A stretch of DNA of 64,000 nt, taken from the NCBI GenBank assembly GCA_000092065.1, contig CP000590.1; one strand, written 5' to 3'. Source of the DNA: Ostreococcus lucimarinus. Its lineage: Eukaryota. Under the pieces are notes generated by a model. That model made no database searches and was not told the origin of the DNA. It was given only the letters and a program-made list of their open reading frames with translations. The position numbers and the translations under genes are program-made. Shown in pieces: positions 3,687 through 58,651 of this stretch; the stretch's first letter is position 1; each line of letters opens with the position of its first letter.

Positions 3687-4349
3687 TCACGACGTCTGCG
3701 TCGCGCCTATCGCGAACAAATCCTCGCGCAACGACCTCGACATCGCCTCAAACTCCTCGTCCGAAACGCACGCGCGCAGCGCGGACGCGTCGTCGACGAC
3801 CCACGCGTCGGTGTCGACCCACGACTTGCACCCCCCGTACCGCTCGTCGTCGGGATCGATCGTCAGCCCCTCCCGCGCCTCGTAGCATCGAACCTCCAAA
3901 ATCACCAACGGCGCGTCCGGTTTCCAATTCGCCCGCCGCGCGAACAAATCTTCCGGCCAGCCCGATCGCGCGCTGAGGACCCTCAGCGCCTTCGGCGCGT
4001 CCTCCGCGCGCACCTCAAACGTTCCCGTCGCCGCCGCGAGCGCGTCCAGCGCCTTCGGCGCGCTCGCCGTCCCCGCCGCGCGCGCGTACGCCGATAGATC
4101 CGCGTGAAACGCCGTCGGAAACAACCAGAACGCGTCCGCGCGCAGCTCGAACCCGCGCGCGTCGCGGAGGCCTCCCTTGCGCGCGAGCGCGATTTGTTCG
4201 CCGCGTCGCAGCGCGTCGACGACGAACGCCCACTCCTTCAGCGCGACGTCCACGCGCTCGACCGCGCGCCGCGGCGCCGGACCGCGGTCGACGCGACGCG
4301 ACGCGCGCGACGCGCGAGGCGGGACGCGCGCGCCCAGCGCGCGGCACAT
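3687..4349 (-). CDS. Conserved hypothetical protein, DUF1802-like (bacterial-type)
   Basis: The N-terminal block ALKEWAFVVDALRRGEQIALARKGG resembles bacterial DUF1802 proteins. This is from memory and unverified. Confidence 0.4.
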   Translation of the reverse strand: MCRALGARVPPRASRASRRVDRGPAPRRAVERVDVALKEWAFVVDALRRGEQIALARKGGLRDARGFELRADAFWLFPTAFHADLSAYARAAGTASAPKALDALAAATGTFEVRAEDAPKALRVLSARSGWPEDLFARRANWKPDAPLVILEVRCYEAREGLTIDPDDERYGGCKSWVDTDAWVVDDASALRACVSDEEFEAMSRSLREDLFAIGATQTS

Positions 4350-5817: not shown

Positions 5818-6648
5818 TCACCAACCGAGCAAAAGCGGAAACATCCCTAGCAGACATCCCACGGTGACCCCCCCCGTGGCGCCCGCGACTTTGGCCCATC
5901 GCACCGCCGCCGTCATTCGCTGCGCCTGGGTCAAATTCTGCGGCGCCTGGAACCCCAACCGCTCGGCGAAGGTTTCGATCTTGCTCGACAACCCGATCCC
6001 CACGACGTCGCTCACCGTGTTCCCGAACCCCGCCGCCGCCATCGTGCTCAGCCCCAACCCCACCCCGAGCGCCGTCTCGATAGACTCCCCCGCCATGATC
6101 ATCACCGCGTTATCGCACAGCCCGAACCCCACGAACGGCACCGCCTGACTCAGCGCCACCGCTCGCAACTGCGCCGCCGTCGCGCTCGCCGTCGCGCTCG
6201 CCTCCTCCCGCCCCACCGACGCCGCGTCCCGCCGTTCGTCGCGACTCAGCGCCATCAAAAATTCCTTCTTATCCAAAACCCCGTCCCCGTTCGCGTCCGC
6301 GTCCTCGAACGCGCGATCGAGCGTCCCCGCGCTCGCGAGCGTCGCCATCACCGCGTCCCGCGTCGCCGCGTCCTCCGCCGCCACCGTCCCCACCGCCCGC
6401 GCGCGCGCCTCCGGCGCCATCGCTCGCAGCGCCCGCACCACCGCGCGCTCGTCCTCGCGCGCCGTCGCGCCCTGCGTCCGCCATCGCCGCTCGACGCGAT
6501 GCGGCTCGCGCGCGCGATGATTTCGTCCGACGTCTTCGCCGCGCCGTCGCGCGTCGCGCGCGCCGCCGCATCGCGCGCCGCGCTCGAGCGCGTCGCCGAC
6601 CATCGCCACCGACCGCGCGAGCGGTCTCGCGACGCGACGCGACGCCAT
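5818..6648 (-). CDS. TMEM65: TMEM65-like membrane protein with EF-hand
   Basis: An EF-hand loop DANGDGVLDKKEF is present. The C-terminal block GFGLCDNAVMIMAGESIE...GNTVSDVVGIGLS...GCLLGMFPLLLGW matches the TMEM65/DUF2453 family. The ORF extends to 6750, but the start was chosen at the internal Met at 6648. Confidence 0.6.
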   Translation of the reverse strand: MASRRVARPLARSVAMVGDALERGARCGGARDARRRGEDVGRNHRAREPHRVERRWRTQGATAREDERAVVRALRAMAPEARARAVGTVAAEDAATRDAVMATLASAGTLDRAFEDADANGDGVLDKKEFLMALSRDERRDAASVGREEASATASATAAQLRAVALSQAVPFVGFGLCDNAVMIMAGESIETALGVGLGLSTMAAAGFGNTVSDVVGIGLSSKIETFAERLGFQAPQNLTQAQRMTAAVRWAKVAGATGGVTVGCLLGMFPLLLGW

Positions 6649-6770
6649 GCGACGCGACGCGCGCGCGAATGGCGCCGAGGCTTCACATCGCGACGCGACG
6701 CGACGCGAATCGACGACGCGACGGCGCGCGCGAACGCGCGCGCGCGCCAAGGCACGAACGCGCAGACAGC

Positions 6771-48612: not shown

Positions 48613-48679
48613 CGCGACGCGAAGTGTCGCCGCACTCCGACCCGCAGCGCGCGCCGATCGCGCGACGCGACGCGACGCG

Positions 48680-53980: not shown

Positions 53981-54847
53981 TCAAGACGTCGCGGATTCGG
54001 ACAAGCCGAAAACGCCGATCTCGACGTTGAAGGCGCTGGGATCGTCCTCGCGCGCGAGGTCCATCGTCACGGATTCCGCGCGCGACGCCTCCTCGGCGTC
54101 GACGGCGACGAATCTGTAAAAGCCTTCCATCGTACCGCGCTTGGTCTTCAAAGGCGTCGACGACGCGTACTCGAAGCTCGCGCCCGGTTTGATCGTCGGT
54201 TGCTTGCCCACGACCCCGGCTCCGCGCACGGCTTCCGTTCGTCCCTCGTCGTCCGTGATCAACCAGCTTCGACTCAACAACTTGACGCTGGAGTCGGAGA
54301 CGTTTGTAATCGTCACGACGTACTGGAAAAACCACATAGATTCCTTTGGCGAGCTTCGATCGATCACGCATCGCGATTTCACCCGCACGCGCACGCCGCG
54401 CGTCGTGCGATCGCTCTCGCACGGCGACAGCCCGTCCACGACGGCGTCTCGCTCGAGTTCCTCGATCAACATCTTCACGCTCGCCGCCTTTTCGTAGTCT
54501 TCGCGCAAAATCAGCTCCGCCAAGTCGTCCTCCGCCCGCGCCAGCGGATCGCGTCGTCGCAGCGCGCGCAGCTCGTCCCGCACGTTCGCCGCCGCCGCAA
54601 AATTCTCACACGCGATCGCGTCCGCCAACCTCTCGTCCAGCCGCATCGCTCGTCTCCTGAGCGCGGGATCCGTGAACGCCTCCGCCGTCGTCCTCAACCG
54701 TTTCGTGTTCCCGTCCTCCCCCGCGCCGCCCGCGCGCGCCGCGCACCGCGCCGCGCGCCGCGCGCGCGCGCCCCCGCGACGATCCCGCGTCCGCGTCACC
54801 GCCCGCGACGCCCGCGCGTCGCCCGAACGCATCGCACGCGTCGCCAT
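53981..54847 (-). CDS. UVR-motif + ApaG-domain protein
   Basis: A UVR-like helix (ENFAAAANVRDELRALR) and an ApaG/DUF525 beta-sandwich block (FQYVVTITNVSDSSVKLLSRSWLITDDEGR...GKQPTIKPGASFEY). Confidence 0.7.
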   Translation of the reverse strand: MATRAMRSGDARASRAVTRTRDRRGGARARRAARCAARAGGAGEDGNTKRLRTTAEAFTDPALRRRAMRLDERLADAIACENFAAAANVRDELRALRRRDPLARAEDDLAELILREDYEKAASVKMLIEELERDAVVDGLSPCESDRTTRGVRVRVKSRCVIDRSSPKESMWFFQYVVTITNVSDSSVKLLSRSWLITDDEGRTEAVRGAGVVGKQPTIKPGASFEYASSTPLKTKRGTMEGFYRFVAVDAEEASRAESVTMDLAREDDPSAFNVEIGVFGLSESATS

Positions 54848-55248
54848 CGCGAATCAGATCGCTGATCGCGAAAAAGCGATCAATCCAATCGCGCGATCGA
54901 TGGATGAATCGACGCCGTCGTCGTTCGTCGCGATCGACCGAATCCGGCGTTCGCGACGAAGCGCGCGCGCGATGAAGAGCCGCACCGACGCCCGAAGTCG
55001 CGCGCCGAGCGCGTCGCGGTCGCGTCGCGCTTCTGTGACGCGCGAACGCCGCGTCGGATCGTCGCGCGCGCGATCGCTTTTTCGCGAAAAAGCGCCTCGA
55101 GCGGCGCGATCGACGCGTCCGACGCCCGCGTCGATCGATCGCGCGGTCGATCGATCGATCGCGCGATCGTCGCGCGGTCGATCGCGCGATGGTTTCGCGA
55201 TCGATCGATCGCGCGCGCGGCGCGCGGGCGCGAGGACGCGACGCGCGG

Positions 55249-56137
55249 ATGGCGACGACGGCGACGACGCGGGCGTGGGAGGATCTGCGCAAGGATGCGC
55301 GACGGACGGAGAGCGCGATAGAGCGCGAGCTCGGGGAGCTGAGCGCGCTCGGTGCGCGCGCGACGCGACGCGACGCGACCATCCGACGACGCGGGCGATT
55401 CGCGCGCGACGCGACCATCCGACGACGCGACGCGACGCGACGCGACGCGATGGCGCGAGCGGGCGATTGACGAGCGGCGACGGTGACGGACGATAGGAGC
55501 GAAAGCGCGGTACGGCGGCGCGGACGCGCGCGCGGCGACGCGGGACGCGGTCGAGACGATGGAAAGGGTGGAGCGAGAGATCGCGCGACTGCGAGCGATC
55601 GACGAGGACATGGCGCGCGCGCTGGAGGCGGATGACGAACGGGCGAGAAGCGCGAGCGGACGGGAGGGGGAGGGCGCGACGAGCGCGGGGTATCGAGACT
55701 CGCGGAGACACACGCTGCAGAGACATCGAGACGTGCTGCAGGAATACGCGGACGAGCTGCGGCGGTTGAGAAGAGACGCCGAGGACGCGGCGGAGCGGGA
55801 GAGTTTGTTGGGAGGACGCGCGGGGTCGAGCGCTTCGGGCGGACCCGACGAGAGCGCGGAGGCGAGGTTGATTCGTGAGCGCGCGCGCATAGCGGGGAGC
55901 GCGAGCGCGATGGACGATATCATCAGCGTGGCGCAGAACACGGCGCGAGAGCTCTTCGCGCAACGCGGAATTTTACAAAACGCCGGGGCGAAAATTTTAA
56001 CCATGACGAGCAAGTTTCCGGTGTTGAATAACTTGGTGCTGGCGATCAAGCGGAAAAAGAATAAAGATGCGATGATTTTAGCCGCCGTCGTCGCCGCGTG
56101 CACGACGTTCGTCCTGCTCTACTACTTGTCTAAATAG
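55249..56137 (+). CDS. GOS1: Golgi Qb-SNARE GOS1/GS28. The coding sequence is interrupted between about 55352 and 55556 by an intron or a frameshift.
   Basis: Exon 1 encodes WEDLRKDARRTESAIEREL, the GS28 N-terminal signature. The downstream ORF encodes HTLQRHRDVLQEY and the SNARE motif plus transmembrane segment KFPVLNNLVLAIKRKKNKDAMILAAVVAACT. The two parts are in different frames. Confidence 0.75.
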
Positions 56138-56139
56138 CC

Positions 56140-57609
56140 GTGTCATCGAAAGCCGAGAAATTGTTCGCGCTCGCGAGGGACTTCACGTCACACGCCGGCG
56201 CGATGCGTCGCCCCGTGTTTTGCGTGGTCGTATGCATCGCCTTTTCGTCGTTCCACGTCGGCGACGCCGCGGAGTCATCGTGCCAAACGCTCGTGTTCTC
56301 CGGGCTTTCCACGTCGTGCAACTTGAACGGCGGACAGAGCTCGAGCGAGGACGCGTGTTGTCGAGCGCTCGACAAAGCGAACGCAAAACGCTGTTTTTGC
56401 GACAATCAACTTATGACGACGATTCAGTTAGTGATTGGAGAAAACGGCATCCAGTTTTTTCGAGACTTCGCGATTGGTTCGTGCTCTGGAGAACTCACGG
56501 AGGGTGAGGCGTGCGACGACGTCGCCGGCGACGACGGATCCGAGTGGGACGGCGTCATCGCGCCGCCGCCGCCGATGGACCACACACACACACATCGCGA
56601 TTTGGAGTTATCCGAGATTGAGTATTACACGCAAGACGTGCGAGGTTCGCCACCACCCGATCGTCGGCCGACGCCGCTGTTCCCAACGCGAGCGCCTCCG
56701 GAACGAGAAACCATCGCAAATTTCATACTCGATCCCAGACGCGACGCGGAGATTGGATTTACGGCGGACGCTCTCACGCTCACCGGCGTTCGGAACGACT
56801 TGGATTCCAATCAAACTTCAACGGTTTTCGTACCGACAAACGAGGCGTGGTACGCCCTGCTCTTTCGTCTCGGCGTCACGAAGGAGGAACTGTTCGCCGA
56901 CACGATTTGGCTGGCCGACGCGCTTCGATACCACATCGTCCGCGACATCGCGCACACCTCAAACATGGGTTTCGGAACTTCGCTTATGACTGATCTCGAC
57001 GACGAAGAGTTGCATGTGGAGAAGTATACCGATAGCAGGCGTTCGAACGTTCCCGTTCGCGTCAACGGATGCTTTGTTCATCCCGCGGCGAATCGCCGCG
57101 ACGTCAGAGTCGGCGACCACGGCGTCGTACACTATATCGATTGTGTTTTACTACCACCGCGGCACCCATTACCCACGTCGCGCACGCTGGCGCAATATAT
57201 TTCGTCAGAGCCGAGCGTGTCGATGTTCGCCAACGCGTTGGCGGGCTCGACGTTGATGTCCGAGCTCTGGAACGAATCCCGTAGGTTCACCGTCTTCGCG
57301 CCGACGAACGATGCGTTCGTGCGATTCTTGGGAGATCCACGCGTCGGGGCGACATTTTACGACGACGGCGTCTTTCGAGACATGCTGTCTCGCCACGTCG
57401 CGCTCGGATTCCACGAAATCTCTGAACTTGCCACCGGGCGCGCCTTGAAATCGCTCACCACCGTCGCCGGCGACGACGATCAAAGTCGCGTGTACGTGGA
57501 GACGCGACGACGAGGCGAAGTCTTCGTAAACGGATGCGCCGTCATCGGTGAACAAATTTTCGCGCGCGACGGCGCCGTACACTTCATCGACTGCGTGCTG
57601 ACTGACTGA
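56140..57609 (+). CDS. Secreted fasciclin (FAS1) domain protein, two FAS1 repeats
   Basis: A signal peptide and two FAS1 signatures (TVFVPTNEAW...YHIV and TVFAPTNDAF...HFIDCVL). The start may be the Met at 56203. Confidence 0.8.
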   Translation: MSSKAEKLFALARDFTSHAGAMRRPVFCVVVCIAFSSFHVGDAAESSCQTLVFSGLSTSCNLNGGQSSSEDACCRALDKANAKRCFCDNQLMTTIQLVIGENGIQFFRDFAIGSCSGELTEGEACDDVAGDDGSEWDGVIAPPPPMDHTHTHRDLELSEIEYYTQDVRGSPPPDRRPTPLFPTRAPPERETIANFILDPRRDAEIGFTADALTLTGVRNDLDSNQTSTVFVPTNEAWYALLFRLGVTKEELFADTIWLADALRYHIVRDIAHTSNMGFGTSLMTDLDDEELHVEKYTDSRRSNVPVRVNGCFVHPAANRRDVRVGDHGVVHYIDCVLLPPRHPLPTSRTLAQYISSEPSVSMFANALAGSTLMSELWNESRRFTVFAPTNDAFVRFLGDPRVGATFYDDGVFRDMLSRHVALGFHEISELATGRALKSLTTVAGDDDQSRVYVETRRRGEVFVNGCAVIGEQIFARDGAVHFIDCVLTD

Positions 57610-57649
57610 AGACTGTATACGTAATGATACAACGTAATGATACAACAAA

Positions 57650-58369
57650 CTAAAACTCGAGCGAAGCGTCGCCGCCACCGTAATGAATCATCTCTGCCAT
57701 CGCGCACGCCACGCACAACGCAGCCACGCCGCCGAACACGCGATAAAACTCCCCCCACTCCACGTCGTCGCTCGCCGCGTTGTCGCTCGATCGACTCGGC
57801 GCCAACAACGAAAACACCTTGGCGTAACACCGCCACCCGAGCATCACCCCCAGCGCGGTGAGCGTCGACACCAGCAGCCCGTGAGATGCCTCTTGCGCTA
57901 ATCCGCCTTTCGTCGCGAACACGACCCCGACCGCTTGCAACGGCGCCCACACCGCCCACGTTTGGACGACTTCGCTCGTCGCGCGCCGCACCGACGGCGT
58001 CTCGTCCCAGTCGATTTCGTAACTCTTCGTCAAAACCGCGCTCACCACCACCCACAAGATCAGCGACCACGCCGCGTCGATCGAAAACGCCGCCGCGCTC
58101 CGCGCCGTGACCTCGATCGGGGCCAACCATCCTGGGAAATCCGCCGCCGCGCTCACCGCGGAGACTTTTTTATACAACAGAAACAGCCACAGCACCGTCA
58201 CGTCGCCGAGGACGAGCAGCCCGTCCTCGAGCGCGCGTCCTCGGTCGCGCGCGTCCTCTCGCGGGCGCGCGTCGTCGTCGCGCGCGTCGTCCGCGTCGTC
58301 GTCCAGCGCGCGCGTCGTTCGCGCGCGCGACGAACGCGCGCGCGCGGGTCTCGAGCGCCACGTCAGCAT
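57650..58369 (-). CDS. Hypothetical multi-pass membrane protein
   Basis: Five or six hydrophobic segments downstream of the Met at 58369. The ORF's upstream Arg/Ala-rich extension is discarded. Confidence 0.4.
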   Translation of the reverse strand: MLTWRSRPARARSSRARTTRALDDDADDARDDDARPREDARDRGRALEDGLLVLGDVTVLWLFLLYKKVSAVSAAADFPGWLAPIEVTARSAAAFSIDAAWSLILWVVVSAVLTKSYEIDWDETPSVRRATSEVVQTWAVWAPLQAVGVVFATKGGLAQEASHGLLVSTLTALGVMLGWRCYAKVFSLLAPSRSSDNAASDDVEWGEFYRVFGGVAALCVACAMAEMIHYGGGDASLEF

Positions 58370-58651
58370 CGAGACCGCCTCGCGCGCGCGCGCGCGGCGC
58401 GCGGGGCGCGCGGGGCGCGCGCGCGCGATCCACGCGCGCGTCGCGCGATCGGCGACCGCGCCGCGCGTCGCGCGACCGCGCGCCGCGACGCGCGCGAGCG
58501 CCATCGGCGACGACGCGTCAGTCTGTGCCGCGCCTCGCGCATGCGCTCGACGTCGACGCGGTCGACGAACGCGACGCGCGGCGCGCGACGCGACGCGACG
58601 CGCGAGAGCGCGCGCGTCTCGAGGCGCGGAACGGCGCGCGACGCGCGCGCG

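What the first reader, a model, noticed from the sequence alone, without database searches (positions are those of the whole stretch)
55249..56137. GOS1/GS28 SNARE gene split into two frames at a tandem-repeat patch: rare intron (introner-like?) or assembly frameshift
The GS28 N-terminal signature (WEDLRKDARRTESAIEREL) is in frame 1 and stops at 55468. The rest of the protein (MERVEREIARL...HTLQRHRDVLQEY...SNARE motif and transmembrane segment) is in frame 2, which opens at 55487. The gap contains two copies of GACGCGACCATCCGACGACGCG plus (GACGCG)n. Either a spliceosomal intron lies here, with a possible GT donor near 55352, or a single-base frameshift in 55467-55487 fuses the halves through an RD-rich linker. 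Nearly all other genes in the window are uninterrupted. A repeat-bearing intron in an otherwise intron-poor, Micromonas-like genome would recall introner elements.
Basis: partly seen in the sequence, partly recalled or inferred. Interest (0 to 1): 0.5.

Follow-up and report, generated by a model that had tools for sequence, protein, structure and literature searches.

The report
Ordinary intron in Ostreococcus GS28 gene
The two-frame split in this Golgi SNARE gene is one ordinary, already annotated spliceosomal intron of the green picoalga Ostreococcus lucimarinus, shared with its relatives; it is neither a mobile "introner" nor a sequencing error, though the public gene model probably places the 3' end of the intron 99 bases too far downstream.

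Summary
The GS28/GOSR1 N-terminus (ATG 55249) runs in one frame to a TGA at 55468, and the rest of the protein is in the next frame, ending at 56137.

The window matches Ostreococcus lucimarinus CCE9901, not Micromonas. The deposited protein XP_001420038.1 is reproduced exactly by splicing donor 55352 to acceptor 55595, so an intron is already annotated here.

I place the intron at 55352-55496 (145 nt, phase 1). It carries the published O. lucimarinus signals: donor GTGCGCG, branch motif GATTGACG, and 23 nt from that motif to the first usable AG.

Seven related picoalgal lineages have a phase-1 intron at the same codon with the same branch motif. One groups with O. tauri, whose deposited model XP_022839859.1 has the same junction. 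The intron interiors otherwise differ, each with its own simple repeats.

A single-base frameshift cannot fuse the halves, because all three frames close within 55468-55496.

The intron's 20-mer recurs in metagenomes only at this same locus, and (GACGC)n also occurs in intergenic DNA. Nothing supports an introner.

The one small new point is the deposited acceptor. It skips 33 conserved residues, and a 247-aa product is more likely than the 214-aa one. No transcript evidence was available.

The parts
55249..55351 (+). Exon 1 of the GS28/GOSR1 (Golgi Qb-SNARE) gene. It holds the start codon, 34 codons and the first base of codon 35 (MATTATTRAWEDLRKDARRTESAIERELGELSAL + G).
   Evidence: ORF and translation. 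W10, R14, A17, R18, E21 and L28 are invariant across algal and animal GOSR1 proteins. There were no SNPs or indels among about 26 population contigs. The 49 nt upstream carry 14 SNP sites and many indels whose lengths are not multiples of three, so the ATG at 55249 is the start.
55352..55496 (+). Spliceosomal intron, 145 nt, phase 1, GT-AG, 74% G+C.
   Evidence: It has the only frame-restoring GT donor. Its signals match the published O. lucimarinus non-chromosome-2 class. A phase-1 intron lies at the same codon in seven lineages, and the junction equals that of the deposited O. tauri model. Nine SNP sites and three indels of 1, 4 and 5 nt were seen in populations.
55352..55358 (+). 5' splice site GTGCGCG.
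   Evidence: It matches 6 of 7 bases of the O. lucimarinus consensus GTGCGTG (Irimia and Roy 2008). The same GTGCG start is present in L011, L014, L009 and L007.
55355..55450 (+). Tandem-repeat patch: (GACGC)n pentamers plus a 36-nt unit repeated 2.7 times. Two exact 25-nt copies lie at 55369-55393 and 55405-55429.
   Evidence: TRF, the repeat finder family D3 and the exact 22-mer positions. Copy number varies in populations: a 5-nt insertion (about one repeat-unit length) occurs in 4 contigs and a 4-nt insertion in 1. The nearest sister lineage, L011, has one copy of the unit and a (GAAT)n run instead.
55465..55472 (+). Branch-point motif GATTGACG (putative branch A at 55470). The frame-1 stop TGA 55468-70 lies inside it.
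   Evidence: It matches 7 of 8 bases of the published GACTGACG. GAYTGACG is present in the intron of all seven lineages, 20-29 nt before the first usable AG. The motif is not enriched in the window as a whole (10 found, 9.65 expected), so the argument rests on its position and its conservation.
55495..55499 (+). 3' splice site: AG 55495-96 is preferred. A second, in-frame AG at 55498-99 forms a NAGNAG pair.
   Evidence: AG 55495-96 is the first AG at least 10 nt past the branch motif, with N = 23 nt. Position 55498 is A in 15 and C in 14 population sequences. It is synonymous (GGA/GGC) if 55496 is the acceptor, and the C allele removes the second AG. L011 also lacks the second AG.
55497..56137 (+). 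Exon 2: the last two bases of codon 35 through the stop TAG. With exon 1 it gives a 247-aa product.
   Evidence: Translation, Pfam V-SNARE_C and alignment to O. tauri and animal GOSR1 proteins.
55497..55595 (+). The 99 nt (33 codons: AKARYGGADARAATRDAVETMERVEREIARLR) that the deposited model XP_001420038.1 treats as intron. Read here as coding.
   Evidence: The deposited model equals donor 55352 plus acceptor 55595. The segment aligns with a conserved helix in O. tauri, other lineages and animals. The indel against L011 is 9 nt, in frame. Both population SNPs are synonymous third positions. AlphaFold pLDDT is 80-96 across residues 31-80, as part of helices 2-39 and 43-87. The distal AG is 122 nt past the branch motif, with 9 other AGs in between. 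Against this: a 4-nt deletion at 55579-82 in contigs L005 and L006.
55865..56059 (+). SNARE motif (residues 158-222).
   Evidence: Pfam PF12352 V-SNARE_C, 40.1 bits against a cut-off of 27.1, E = 4.6e-10.
56072..56128 (+). C-terminal hydrophobic tail anchor (MILAAVVAACTTFVLLYYL).
   Evidence: Read directly from the translation. It is conserved in all homologues and modelled as a helix.

Best explanation
The region is one gene for the Golgi Qb-SNARE GS28/GOSR1 (yeast Gos1) of Ostreococcus lucimarinus, or a nearly identical strain. It is interrupted after codon 34 by a single canonical U2-type spliceosomal intron.

Inferred mechanism:
- The pre-mRNA is cut at G|GTGCGCG (55351|55352).
- The lariat forms on the A of GATTGACG (55470).
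- Exon 1 is joined to the first usable AG downstream (55495-96).
- This removes 145 nt in phase 1 and gives a 247-aa tail-anchored SNARE: exon 1 55249-55351 and exon 2 55497-56137.

The intron was already present in the common ancestor of the seven lineages examined. Only its splicing signals are constrained. Its interior drifts freely and has picked up the same CG-rich micro- and minisatellites that fill this genome's intergenic spacers. In this lineage that means a 36-nt tandem duplication and a (GACGC)n run whose length still varies between wild strains.

The deposited model uses the same donor but an acceptor 99 nt further on (55595). That is most likely a prediction error.

What is shown: the gene identity, the frames, the signals, the positional conservation and the lack of other copies. 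What is inferred: that splicing occurs, and the exact acceptor.
For: Identity
- The window's 192-aa exon-2 ORF lies in the same 90% cluster as XP_001420038.1 of O. lucimarinus CCE9901.
- That 214-aa protein is reproduced exactly from the window by joining 55249-55351 to 55596-56137.
- Pfam V-SNARE_C passes its threshold. Relatives carry precomputed PF27017 GOSR1_N plus PF12352.

Splicing signals
- Published O. lucimarinus non-chromosome-2 introns have 5'ss GTGCGTG, branch motif GACTGACG and a branch-to-AG distance of about 20-35 nt (PMC2483917).
- This intron has GTGCGCG, GATTGACG and 23 nt.

Conservation
- The window and six other lineages (L011, L014, L009, L007, L001, L060) all have a phase-1 intron after the same codon.
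- All seven carry GAYTGACG 20-29 nt before the first usable AG. Interiors are unrelated between the distant lineages and carry different repeats: (GAAT)n, (GATT)n, (GAC)n.
- L009 is an O. tauri-like contig. The junction predicted for it is the one in the deposited O. tauri model XP_022839859.1...ALSALAR|VQTSG....
- Gene order is the same in these loci: DEAD helicase, ApaG, GOSR1, fasciclin, FGGY.

Non-coding behaviour
- Among about 29 population sequences the intron has 9 SNP sites and indels of 1, 4 and 5 nt. Exon 1 has none. Exon 2 has 9 SNP sites, 7 of them at third codon positions.

Acceptor
- The 33 residues dropped by the distal acceptor align with a helix conserved from algae to animals.
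- They are modelled with high confidence inside a three-helix N-terminal bundle.
Against: - No transcript evidence could be obtained. None of 13 candidate spliced products, from this lineage and five relatives, is in the protein collection. A junction-spanning peptide search found only exon-1 read-through ORFs.
- The branch motif differs from the consensus at one base, inside the ACTGAC core. The 3' end is GATAG rather than the preferred CGCAG.
- Contigs L005 and L006 carry a 4-nt deletion at 55579-82. It would frameshift the 247-aa product but would be harmless if the distal acceptor were used. They may derive from one sample, and 19 other contigs of the same haplotype group (protein P0074) are intact.
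- Population SNP densities do not statistically separate the disputed 99 nt from the intron (Fisher p = 0.48 on the first nine-contig set).
Confidence: 0.85

Rival explanations
1. Same intron donor, but the deposited acceptor (AG 55594-95) is the true or main one. The intron would then be 244 nt and the product the 214-aa XP_001420038.1. Alternatively, both acceptors are used.
For: - This is the model in the public record.
- The 4-nt deletion in L005 and L006 (55579-82) is tolerated only under this model.
Against: - The distal AG lies 122 nt past the only branch motif, with 9 AGs in between, in a species whose confirmed introns peak at 20-35 nt. No branch-like motif lies near it.
- It deletes 33 residues that are conserved in the deposited O. 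tauri model, in six other lineages and in animals.
- Those residues are confidently helical in the model.
- The indel against the sister lineage is 9 nt, in frame. Both SNPs in the segment are synonymous third positions.
Confidence: 0.07
2. Same intron, but the acceptor is one of the two other nearby in-frame AGs: 55498-99 (product lacks Gly35) or 55504-05 (product ...SAL-ARYGG...).
For: Both restore the frame. GATAGGAG is a classic NAGNAG tandem acceptor.
Against: - AG 55498-99 is absent in about half of the population sequences (C at 55498) and in sister lineage L011.
- The first AG beyond the branch point is normally used, and 55495-96 comes first.
Confidence: 0.06
3. The intron is, or contains, an introner-like mobile element that copied itself into this gene, as in Micromonas.
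For: It is a repeat-bearing, GC-rich intron in an intron-poor genome. Its length (145 nt) is in the range of Micromonas introner elements.
Against: - Introners sit at novel positions, but this position is shared by seven diverged lineages.
- An exact 20-mer from the intron found 18 metagenome contigs. Seven are this same locus. The other 11 share only 20-26 nt and have no similarity to the surrounding window sequence 54001-58000.
- Within the window, the matches are low-complexity (GACGC)n, and the best one lies in an intergenic spacer at 6627-6746.
- There are no terminal inverted repeats or target-site duplication.
- The fold is no better than shuffles, z = +0.41.
- None of the published Micromonas introner signatures are present: GACTGAC plus CAG ends, U-rich tracts.
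- The introner papers I read describe introners in Micromonas but none in Ostreococcus.
Confidence: 0.02
4. There is no intron. An assembly indel split one continuous ORF, or the two halves are separate genes or a pseudogene.
For: Frame 1 stays open for 39 codons past the donor, through an Arg/Asp-rich stretch.
Against: - All three frames have stops at 55468, 55484 and 55494, so at least two indels would be needed.
- About 29 independent assemblies show the same arrangement.
- Strains differ here by 1-, 4- and 5-nt indels. The read-through peptides differ between strains.
- In L011 all three frames are also closed.
- Exon 1 alone encodes only the conserved GOSR1 N-terminal helix.
Confidence: 0.01

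Closest known systems
Canonical ("non-chromosome 2") spliceosomal introns of Ostreococcus lucimarinus, as characterised by Irimia and Roy 2008 (PLoS Genet 4:e1000148)
   Same: - GT-AG boundaries.
- Atypical 5' splice site GTGCG(T/C)G.
- Extended branch motif GA(C/T)TGACG.
- Branch-to-AG spacing of 23 nt, within the 20-35 nt peak.
- High G+C.
- Location near the 5' end of the gene, in an intron-poor part of the genome.
   Different: There is one mismatch in the branch motif (T for C) and one in the 5' splice site. The 3' end is GATAG rather than the preferred CGCAG. The intron also carries an internal 36-nt tandem duplication.
Deposited gene models XP_001420038.1 / UniProt A4S463 (O. lucimarinus) and XP_022839859.1 (O. 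tauri), Golgi SNAP receptor complex member 1
   Same: Same gene, same exon 1, same donor and same intron phase. The O. tauri model uses the proximal type of acceptor and is 246 aa, against 247 aa for the model proposed here.
   Different: The O. lucimarinus deposited model uses an acceptor 99 nt further downstream. It therefore lacks 33 residues, about half of the second helix of the N-terminal bundle.
Micromonas introner elements (D-IE/IE-A in M. pusilla CCMP1545; ABC-IE/IE-C in M. commoda RCC299)
   Same: Both are spliceosomal introns in GC-rich regions of a mamiellophyte genome. Both use a TGAC-type branch motif, and the sizes are similar.
   Different: Introner elements are multi-copy families with conserved sequence, at positions absent from orthologues. 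This intron is single-copy in everything searched, sits at an ancestral position and has no family motif.
Intronic microsatellites and minisatellites generated by replication slippage
   Same: Tandem units of 5 nt and 36 nt. Unit-number polymorphism between near-identical strains. Different repeats in each lineage's copy of the same intron.
   Different: Nothing notable.

Membership tests
Canonical U2-type spliceosomal intron (O. lucimarinus non-chromosome-2 class) | GT...AG boundaries whose removal restores one open reading frame | tested here: met
   55352 GT and 55495-96 AG give a 744-nt CDS with no internal stop. It is the only GT donor that works.
Canonical U2-type spliceosomal intron (O. 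lucimarinus non-chromosome-2 class) | 5' splice site close to GTGCGTG | tested here: met
   GTGCGCG matches 6 of 7 bases.
Canonical U2-type spliceosomal intron (O. lucimarinus non-chromosome-2 class) | Branch motif ACTGAC / GACTGACG located 20-35 nt before the AG | tested here: met
   GATTGACG at 55465-72 matches 7 of 8 bases, with a mismatch inside the ACTGAC core. N = 23 nt. The same arrangement is found in all seven lineages.
Canonical U2-type spliceosomal intron (O. lucimarinus non-chromosome-2 class) | Intron position shared with orthologues while the sequence is not conserved | tested here: met
   Phase 1, same codon, in seven lineages. The junction predicted for the O. tauri-like contig is the one in the deposited O. 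tauri model. The intron aligns with sister lineage L011 only through several gaps whose lengths are not multiples of three.
Canonical U2-type spliceosomal intron (O. lucimarinus non-chromosome-2 class) | Excision from the transcript | not testable with these tools
   No RNA data are reachable. Spliced products are absent from the protein collection.
Introner / introner-like element | Many copies with recognisable sequence similarity in other introns of the same genome | tested here: not met
   The window has only low-complexity matches. The metagenome 20-mer scan found only the orthologous locus. The whole genome was not searchable.
Introner / introner-like element | Novel position: presence/absence polymorphism, absent from orthologues | tested here: not met
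   The intron is present at the same codon in all seven lineages and in every population contig.
Introner / introner-like element | Family hallmarks: terminal inverted repeats or target-site duplication (transposon type), or a 5' splice-site-complementary hairpin and conserved motifs (Micromonas type) | tested here: not met
   No inverted repeats at the intron termini and no flanking direct repeat. Fold z = +0.41. The published Micromonas features are absent.
GOSR1 / GS28 / Gos1 Qb-SNARE | C-terminal SNARE motif (V-SNARE_C) followed by a tail-anchor transmembrane segment | tested here: met
   PF12352 at 40.1 bits against a 27.1 cut-off, residues 158-222. The hydrophobic C-terminus is seen directly in the sequence.
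GOSR1 / GS28 / Gos1 Qb-SNARE | N-terminal GOSR1_N helical domain beginning with the WE(D/E)LRK motif | tested here: met
   Invariant N-terminal residues align with animal GOSR1. Relatives carry precomputed PF27017. Three helices are modelled at pLDDT 80-96. Fold matches to syntaxin Habc domains are only weak, with E of 0.03 or more. PF27017 itself did not appear among the hits when I scanned the 247-aa protein against the local Pfam copy.
Assembly frameshift | The two reading frames overlap, so that one indel joins them | tested here: not met
   Stops at 55468 (frame 1), 55484 (frame 2) and 55494 (frame 3).

The most novel reading that the evidence does not exclude
Both acceptors are used. Alternative 3' splice-site choice (55496 against 55595) would give a long GS28 (247 aa) and a short one (214 aa) lacking half of the second N-terminal helix. 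The 4-nt deletion allele seen in L005 and L006 would persist in wild populations because it can still make the short isoform. That would be a rare case of regulated alternative splicing in an extremely intron-poor picoeukaryote with otherwise rigid branch-to-AG spacing.

The introner reading is separate. I put it at 0.02 or less.
Probability: 0.05. Interest if true: 0.25.

Novelty: already known. Interest (0 to 1): 0.07.

Why it matters
It matters little for biology. It is a textbook example of the constrained intron class already described for O. lucimarinus, in a gene whose intron is already in the public annotation.

Two practical points follow:
- The deposited O. lucimarinus GOSR1 model (XP_001420038.1 / A4S463) probably omits 33 conserved residues because its acceptor is misplaced. 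This is a small annotation correction.
- Prokaryote-style gene callers split or read through this intron in metagenomic picoalgal contigs. That leaves truncated or chimeric "proteins" in large protein collections, for example the 192-aa, 216-aa and 284-aa forms.

Tried and rejected
- Transcript-level proof. I made exact look-ups of 13 candidate spliced products: three acceptors, two possible starts, one allele, and the spliced forms of five relatives. None is in the collection. A junction-spanning 80-aa query found only exon-1 read-through ORFs.
- Looking up the contig of the deposited protein P0080: not on record.
Only the O. tauri and O. lucimarinus clusters carry names.
- Rfam scan of 54800-56300: only sub-threshold chance hits, in the palindromic CG-rich spacer upstream of the gene. 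Nothing in the intron.
- RNA fold of the intron: no better than shuffles.
- A crude intron census of the window, pairing branch motifs with donors and open frames. Long spurious ORFs in GC-rich DNA confound it, so I did not use it. The branch motif alone is not enriched in the window.
- Polymorphism statistics to choose the acceptor. The direction fits coding sequence but the test is not significant on the first nine contigs (p = 0.48, and p = 0.065 for intron against exon). The larger set of 29 gives densities of 6.2, 2.0 and 1.3 SNP sites per 100 nt for the intron, the disputed segment and the rest of exon 2. I did not test that set formally.
- Structure search against the PDB: only weak matches to three-helix bundles, syntaxin Habc domains among them. 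No match reached E of 0.001 or better.
- Supplement of the pan-eukaryote introner survey. In the passages shown, Ostreococcus appears only in a list of Tara genomes. The stored file is cut, so this is not proof of absence.
Full report
**1. What is in the sequence**

- An ATG at 55249 opens a frame that encodes MATTATTRAWEDLRKDARRTESAIERELGELSAL... and runs to TGA 55468-70.
- The next frame is closed by TGA 55484-86. From 55487 to the stop at 56135-37 it encodes ...KARYGG...MERVEREIARL...HTLQRHRDVLQEY..., then a SNARE motif and a hydrophobic tail.
- Between the two halves lies a repeat patch. Two exact 25-nt copies sit 36 nt apart (55369-93 and 55405-29), embedded in (GACGC)n pentamers.
- The duplication is more than chance would give. 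It appears identically in seven independent metagenome contigs of this locus.

**2. Which organism and which gene**

- The 192-aa exon-2 ORF lies in the same 90% cluster as XP_001420038.1 / A4S463, "Golgi SNAP receptor complex member 1", of Ostreococcus lucimarinus CCE9901.
- Joining window 55249-55351 to 55596-56137 reproduces that 214-aa protein exactly.
- The window is therefore O. lucimarinus or a nearly identical strain, not Micromonas. An intron with its donor at 55352 is already in the public annotation.
- The spliced product passes Pfam V-SNARE_C (40.1 bits against a 27.1 cut-off). Homologues carry GOSR1_N plus V-SNARE_C.
- The antisense ORFs and the frame read-through ORFs hit no Pfam family.

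**3. A frameshift cannot explain the split**

- Stops close frame 1 at 55468, frame 2 at 55484 and frame 3 at 55494. The N-terminal and C-terminal frames never overlap, so no single indel can join them.
- About 29 independent population contigs, 97.6-99.6% identical, show the same arrangement.

**4. Anatomy of the intron**

- GT at 55352 is the only GT donor between 55300 and 55470 that restores an open frame. In-frame acceptors end at 55496, 55499, 55505, 55577 and 55595.
- Irimia and Roy (2008, PMC2483917) described EST-confirmed O. lucimarinus introns outside chromosome 2. Their features are:
  - 5' splice site GTGCGTG;
  - branch motif ACTGAC in 87%, extended to GACTGACG in 66.5%;
  - a weak preference for CGCAG at the 3' end;
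  - a branch-to-AG distance peaking at about 20-35 nt;
  - only about 400 predicted introns of this class in the genome.
- This intron has GTGCGCG, GATTGACG (55465-72) and 23 nt to AG 55495-96. That is the first AG at least 10 nt beyond the branch motif.
- The frame-1 stop codon is simply the TGA inside the branch motif.
- The intron is thus 55352-55496: 145 nt, phase 1, 74% G+C.

**5. Comparison with relatives**

I fetched the orthologous locus from six other lineages. Gene order is the same in these loci: DEAD helicase, ApaG, GOSR1, fasciclin, FGGY. Protein identity to the window runs from about 93% down to 65% for five of them.

| Locus | Intron length (nt) | Phase | Branch motif | Branch-to-AG (nt) |
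|---|---|---|---|---|
| Window | 145 | 1 | GATTGACG | 23 |
| L011 | 137 | 1 | GATTGACG | 29 |
| L014 | 101 | 1 | GACTGACG | 20 |
| L009 | 123 | 1 | GATTGACG | 22 |
| L007 | 157 | 1 | GACTGACG | 29 |
| L060 | 122 | 1 | GACTGACG | 27 |
| L001 (first usable AG) | 99 | 1 | GACTGACG | 26 |

- Every lineage has a phase-1 GT-AG intron after the same codon.
- Interiors are otherwise unrelated between the distant lineages. Each carries its own simple repeats: (GAAT)n in L011, (GAC)n in L009, (GATT)n in L007.
- L009 falls in the cluster of O. tauri proteins. The junction I predicted for it (...ALSALAR|VQTSG...) is exactly that of the deposited O. tauri model XP_022839859.1, 246 aa.
- The intron therefore predates the divergence of these lineages. 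Only its splicing signals are under constraint.

**6. Behaviour in wild populations**

| Region | Length (nt) | SNP sites | Indels |
|---|---|---|---|
| 5' flank | 49 | 14 | many, mostly not multiples of 3 |
| Exon 1 | 103 | 0 | 0 |
| Intron | 145 | 9 | 3 (1, 4 and 5 nt) |
| 55497-55595 | 99 | 2 (both third-position, synonymous) | one 4-nt deletion (L005, L006) |
| Rest of exon 2 | 542 | 7 (5 at third positions) | 0 |

- The 5-nt insertion, about one (GACGC) repeat-unit length, lies in the repeat patch and occurs in four contigs.
- The interior of the intron behaves as unconstrained, slippage-prone DNA.

**7. Not an introner**

- Introner elements are defined by many similar copies at novel gene positions (PMC3879977, PMC4540971, PMC4815162). 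The position here is ancestral.
- A 20-mer from the intron's distinctive unit was found in 18 contigs of the metagenome collection. Seven are this same locus at 97-99% identity. The other eleven share only 20-26 nt and have no similarity to the surrounding window sequence 54001-58000.
- Inside the window the intron matches only CG-rich low-complexity patches. The best match, 6627-6746, lies between two divergently oriented genes.
- TRF lists some twenty such patches in the 64 kb.
- There are no terminal inverted repeats and no target-site duplication.
- The intron has no special fold (z = +0.41) and no Rfam match.
- The introner papers I read describe introners in Micromonas but none in Ostreococcus.
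- The whole O. lucimarinus genome could not be searched here, and that is the remaining gap.

**8. Which acceptor**

The deposited model uses AG 55594-95. Four lines of evidence argue for 55495-96 instead.
- The distal AG is 122 nt past the only branch motif, with nine AGs in between, in a species with tight spacing.
- The 33 residues it removes (AKARYGG...MERVEREIARLR) align with a helix conserved in the deposited O. tauri model, the other lineages and animal GOSR1, where the equivalent stretch reads MFETMSIEIEQLLSKL.
- Against the sister lineage L011, 26 of the 33 residues are identical and the only indel is 9 nt.
- An AlphaFold model built on a 19-sequence alignment (mean pLDDT 74) shows three long N-terminal helices: 2-39, 43-87 and 95-140. 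Its pLDDT is 80-96 across residues 31-80. The distal acceptor would cut out about half of the second helix. PDB fold matches to Habc-type bundles are weak.

The neighbouring AG at 55498-99 is missing in about half of the population and in L011. The A/C variant at 55498 is synonymous if 55496 is the acceptor.

Evidence on the other side is the 4-nt deletion at 55579-82 in contigs L005 and L006. It would frameshift the long product but not the deposited one. Those two contigs start at the same base and may derive from one sample. Nineteen other contigs of the same haplotype group (protein P0074) are intact.

My estimates are:
- about 0.8 for 55496;
- about 0.06 for the two nearby in-frame AGs;
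- about 0.07 for the distal site.

No transcript evidence was reachable.

**9. Verdict**

The frameshift, introner and Micromonas readings are not.
- This is a canonical, ancestral, already annotated intron of the known O. lucimarinus type, whose interior has accumulated ordinary micro- and minisatellites.
- The only new element is a probable mis-set acceptor in the deposited model.
- Interest is low.

Noticed in passing
window 55579-55582; L005 and L006 around position 166: Two metagenome contigs 99% identical to the window lack 4 nt (GATC/ATCG) inside the codons for MERVEREIARLR. This would frameshift the 247-aa GS28 but not the deposited 214-aa model. Both contigs start at the same base inside the intron repeat, so they may not be independent.
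   Followed up: partly
window 55596 (deposited acceptor) against 55497: The public O. lucimarinus model XP_001420038.1 / A4S463 appears to place the intron acceptor 99 nt too far downstream, dropping 33 conserved residues. The O. tauri orthologue model keeps them.
   Followed up: yes
window 55498: There is a balanced A/C polymorphism (15 A, 14 C among population contigs) at the second AG of a GATAGGAG tandem (NAGNAG) acceptor. About half of the population therefore has only the single acceptor.
   Followed up: partly
window 55127-55236: The spacer between the divergent ApaG and GS28 genes is a self-complementary (CGATCG)-rich tandem array of period 12/23. Its last 30 nt (55205-55236) are hypervariable between strains: 14 SNP sites and many small indels. 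It draws only sub-threshold, chance Rfam hits to miRNA and sRNA families.
   Followed up: partly
L001-L003 3086-3211 (protein P0003, 284 aa): In one related lineage the orthologous intron is 126 nt, a multiple of three, with no in-frame stop. Prokaryote-style gene callers therefore read through it and deposit a 284-aa "protein" with 42 intron-encoded residues. Other lineages yield N-terminally truncated or wrong-frame products, such as P0001 and P0081.
   Followed up: yes
window 56137-56203: The GS28 stop codon ends at 56137. The first ATG of the downstream fasciclin-domain gene ORF, which begins an apparent signal peptide MRRPVFCVV..., is at about 56203. Only about 65 nt therefore separate the two same-strand coding regions.
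   Followed up: no
window 6627-6746, 4290-4304, 48664-48678, 58587-58601: (GACGC)n-type pentamer arrays like the one in the intron recur at several places in the window. The array at 6627-6746, which I checked, lies in an intergenic spacer. TRF lists about twenty CG-rich tandem patches in the 64 kb.
   Followed up: partly
L028 (Ga0181420_1056015), positions 1-802 and 792-1257: This 1.26-kb metagenome contig joins window 55261-56062 to window 54550-55015 in opposite orientations, with a 10-nt overlap. It is probably a chimeric assembly at the CG-rich repeats.
   Followed up: no
window 55344-55369, 55390-55415 and 55459-55479: The sequence spanning the exon 1/intron junction (CGCGCTCGGTGCGCGCGCGACGCGAC) is 85% identical to an internal intron segment. 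GCGGGCGATT occurs twice, and the second copy carries the branch motif. This suggests the intron grew by tandem duplication of a 36-46 nt unit that included its own signals. The sequence is low-complexity, so this could be chance.
   Followed up: no
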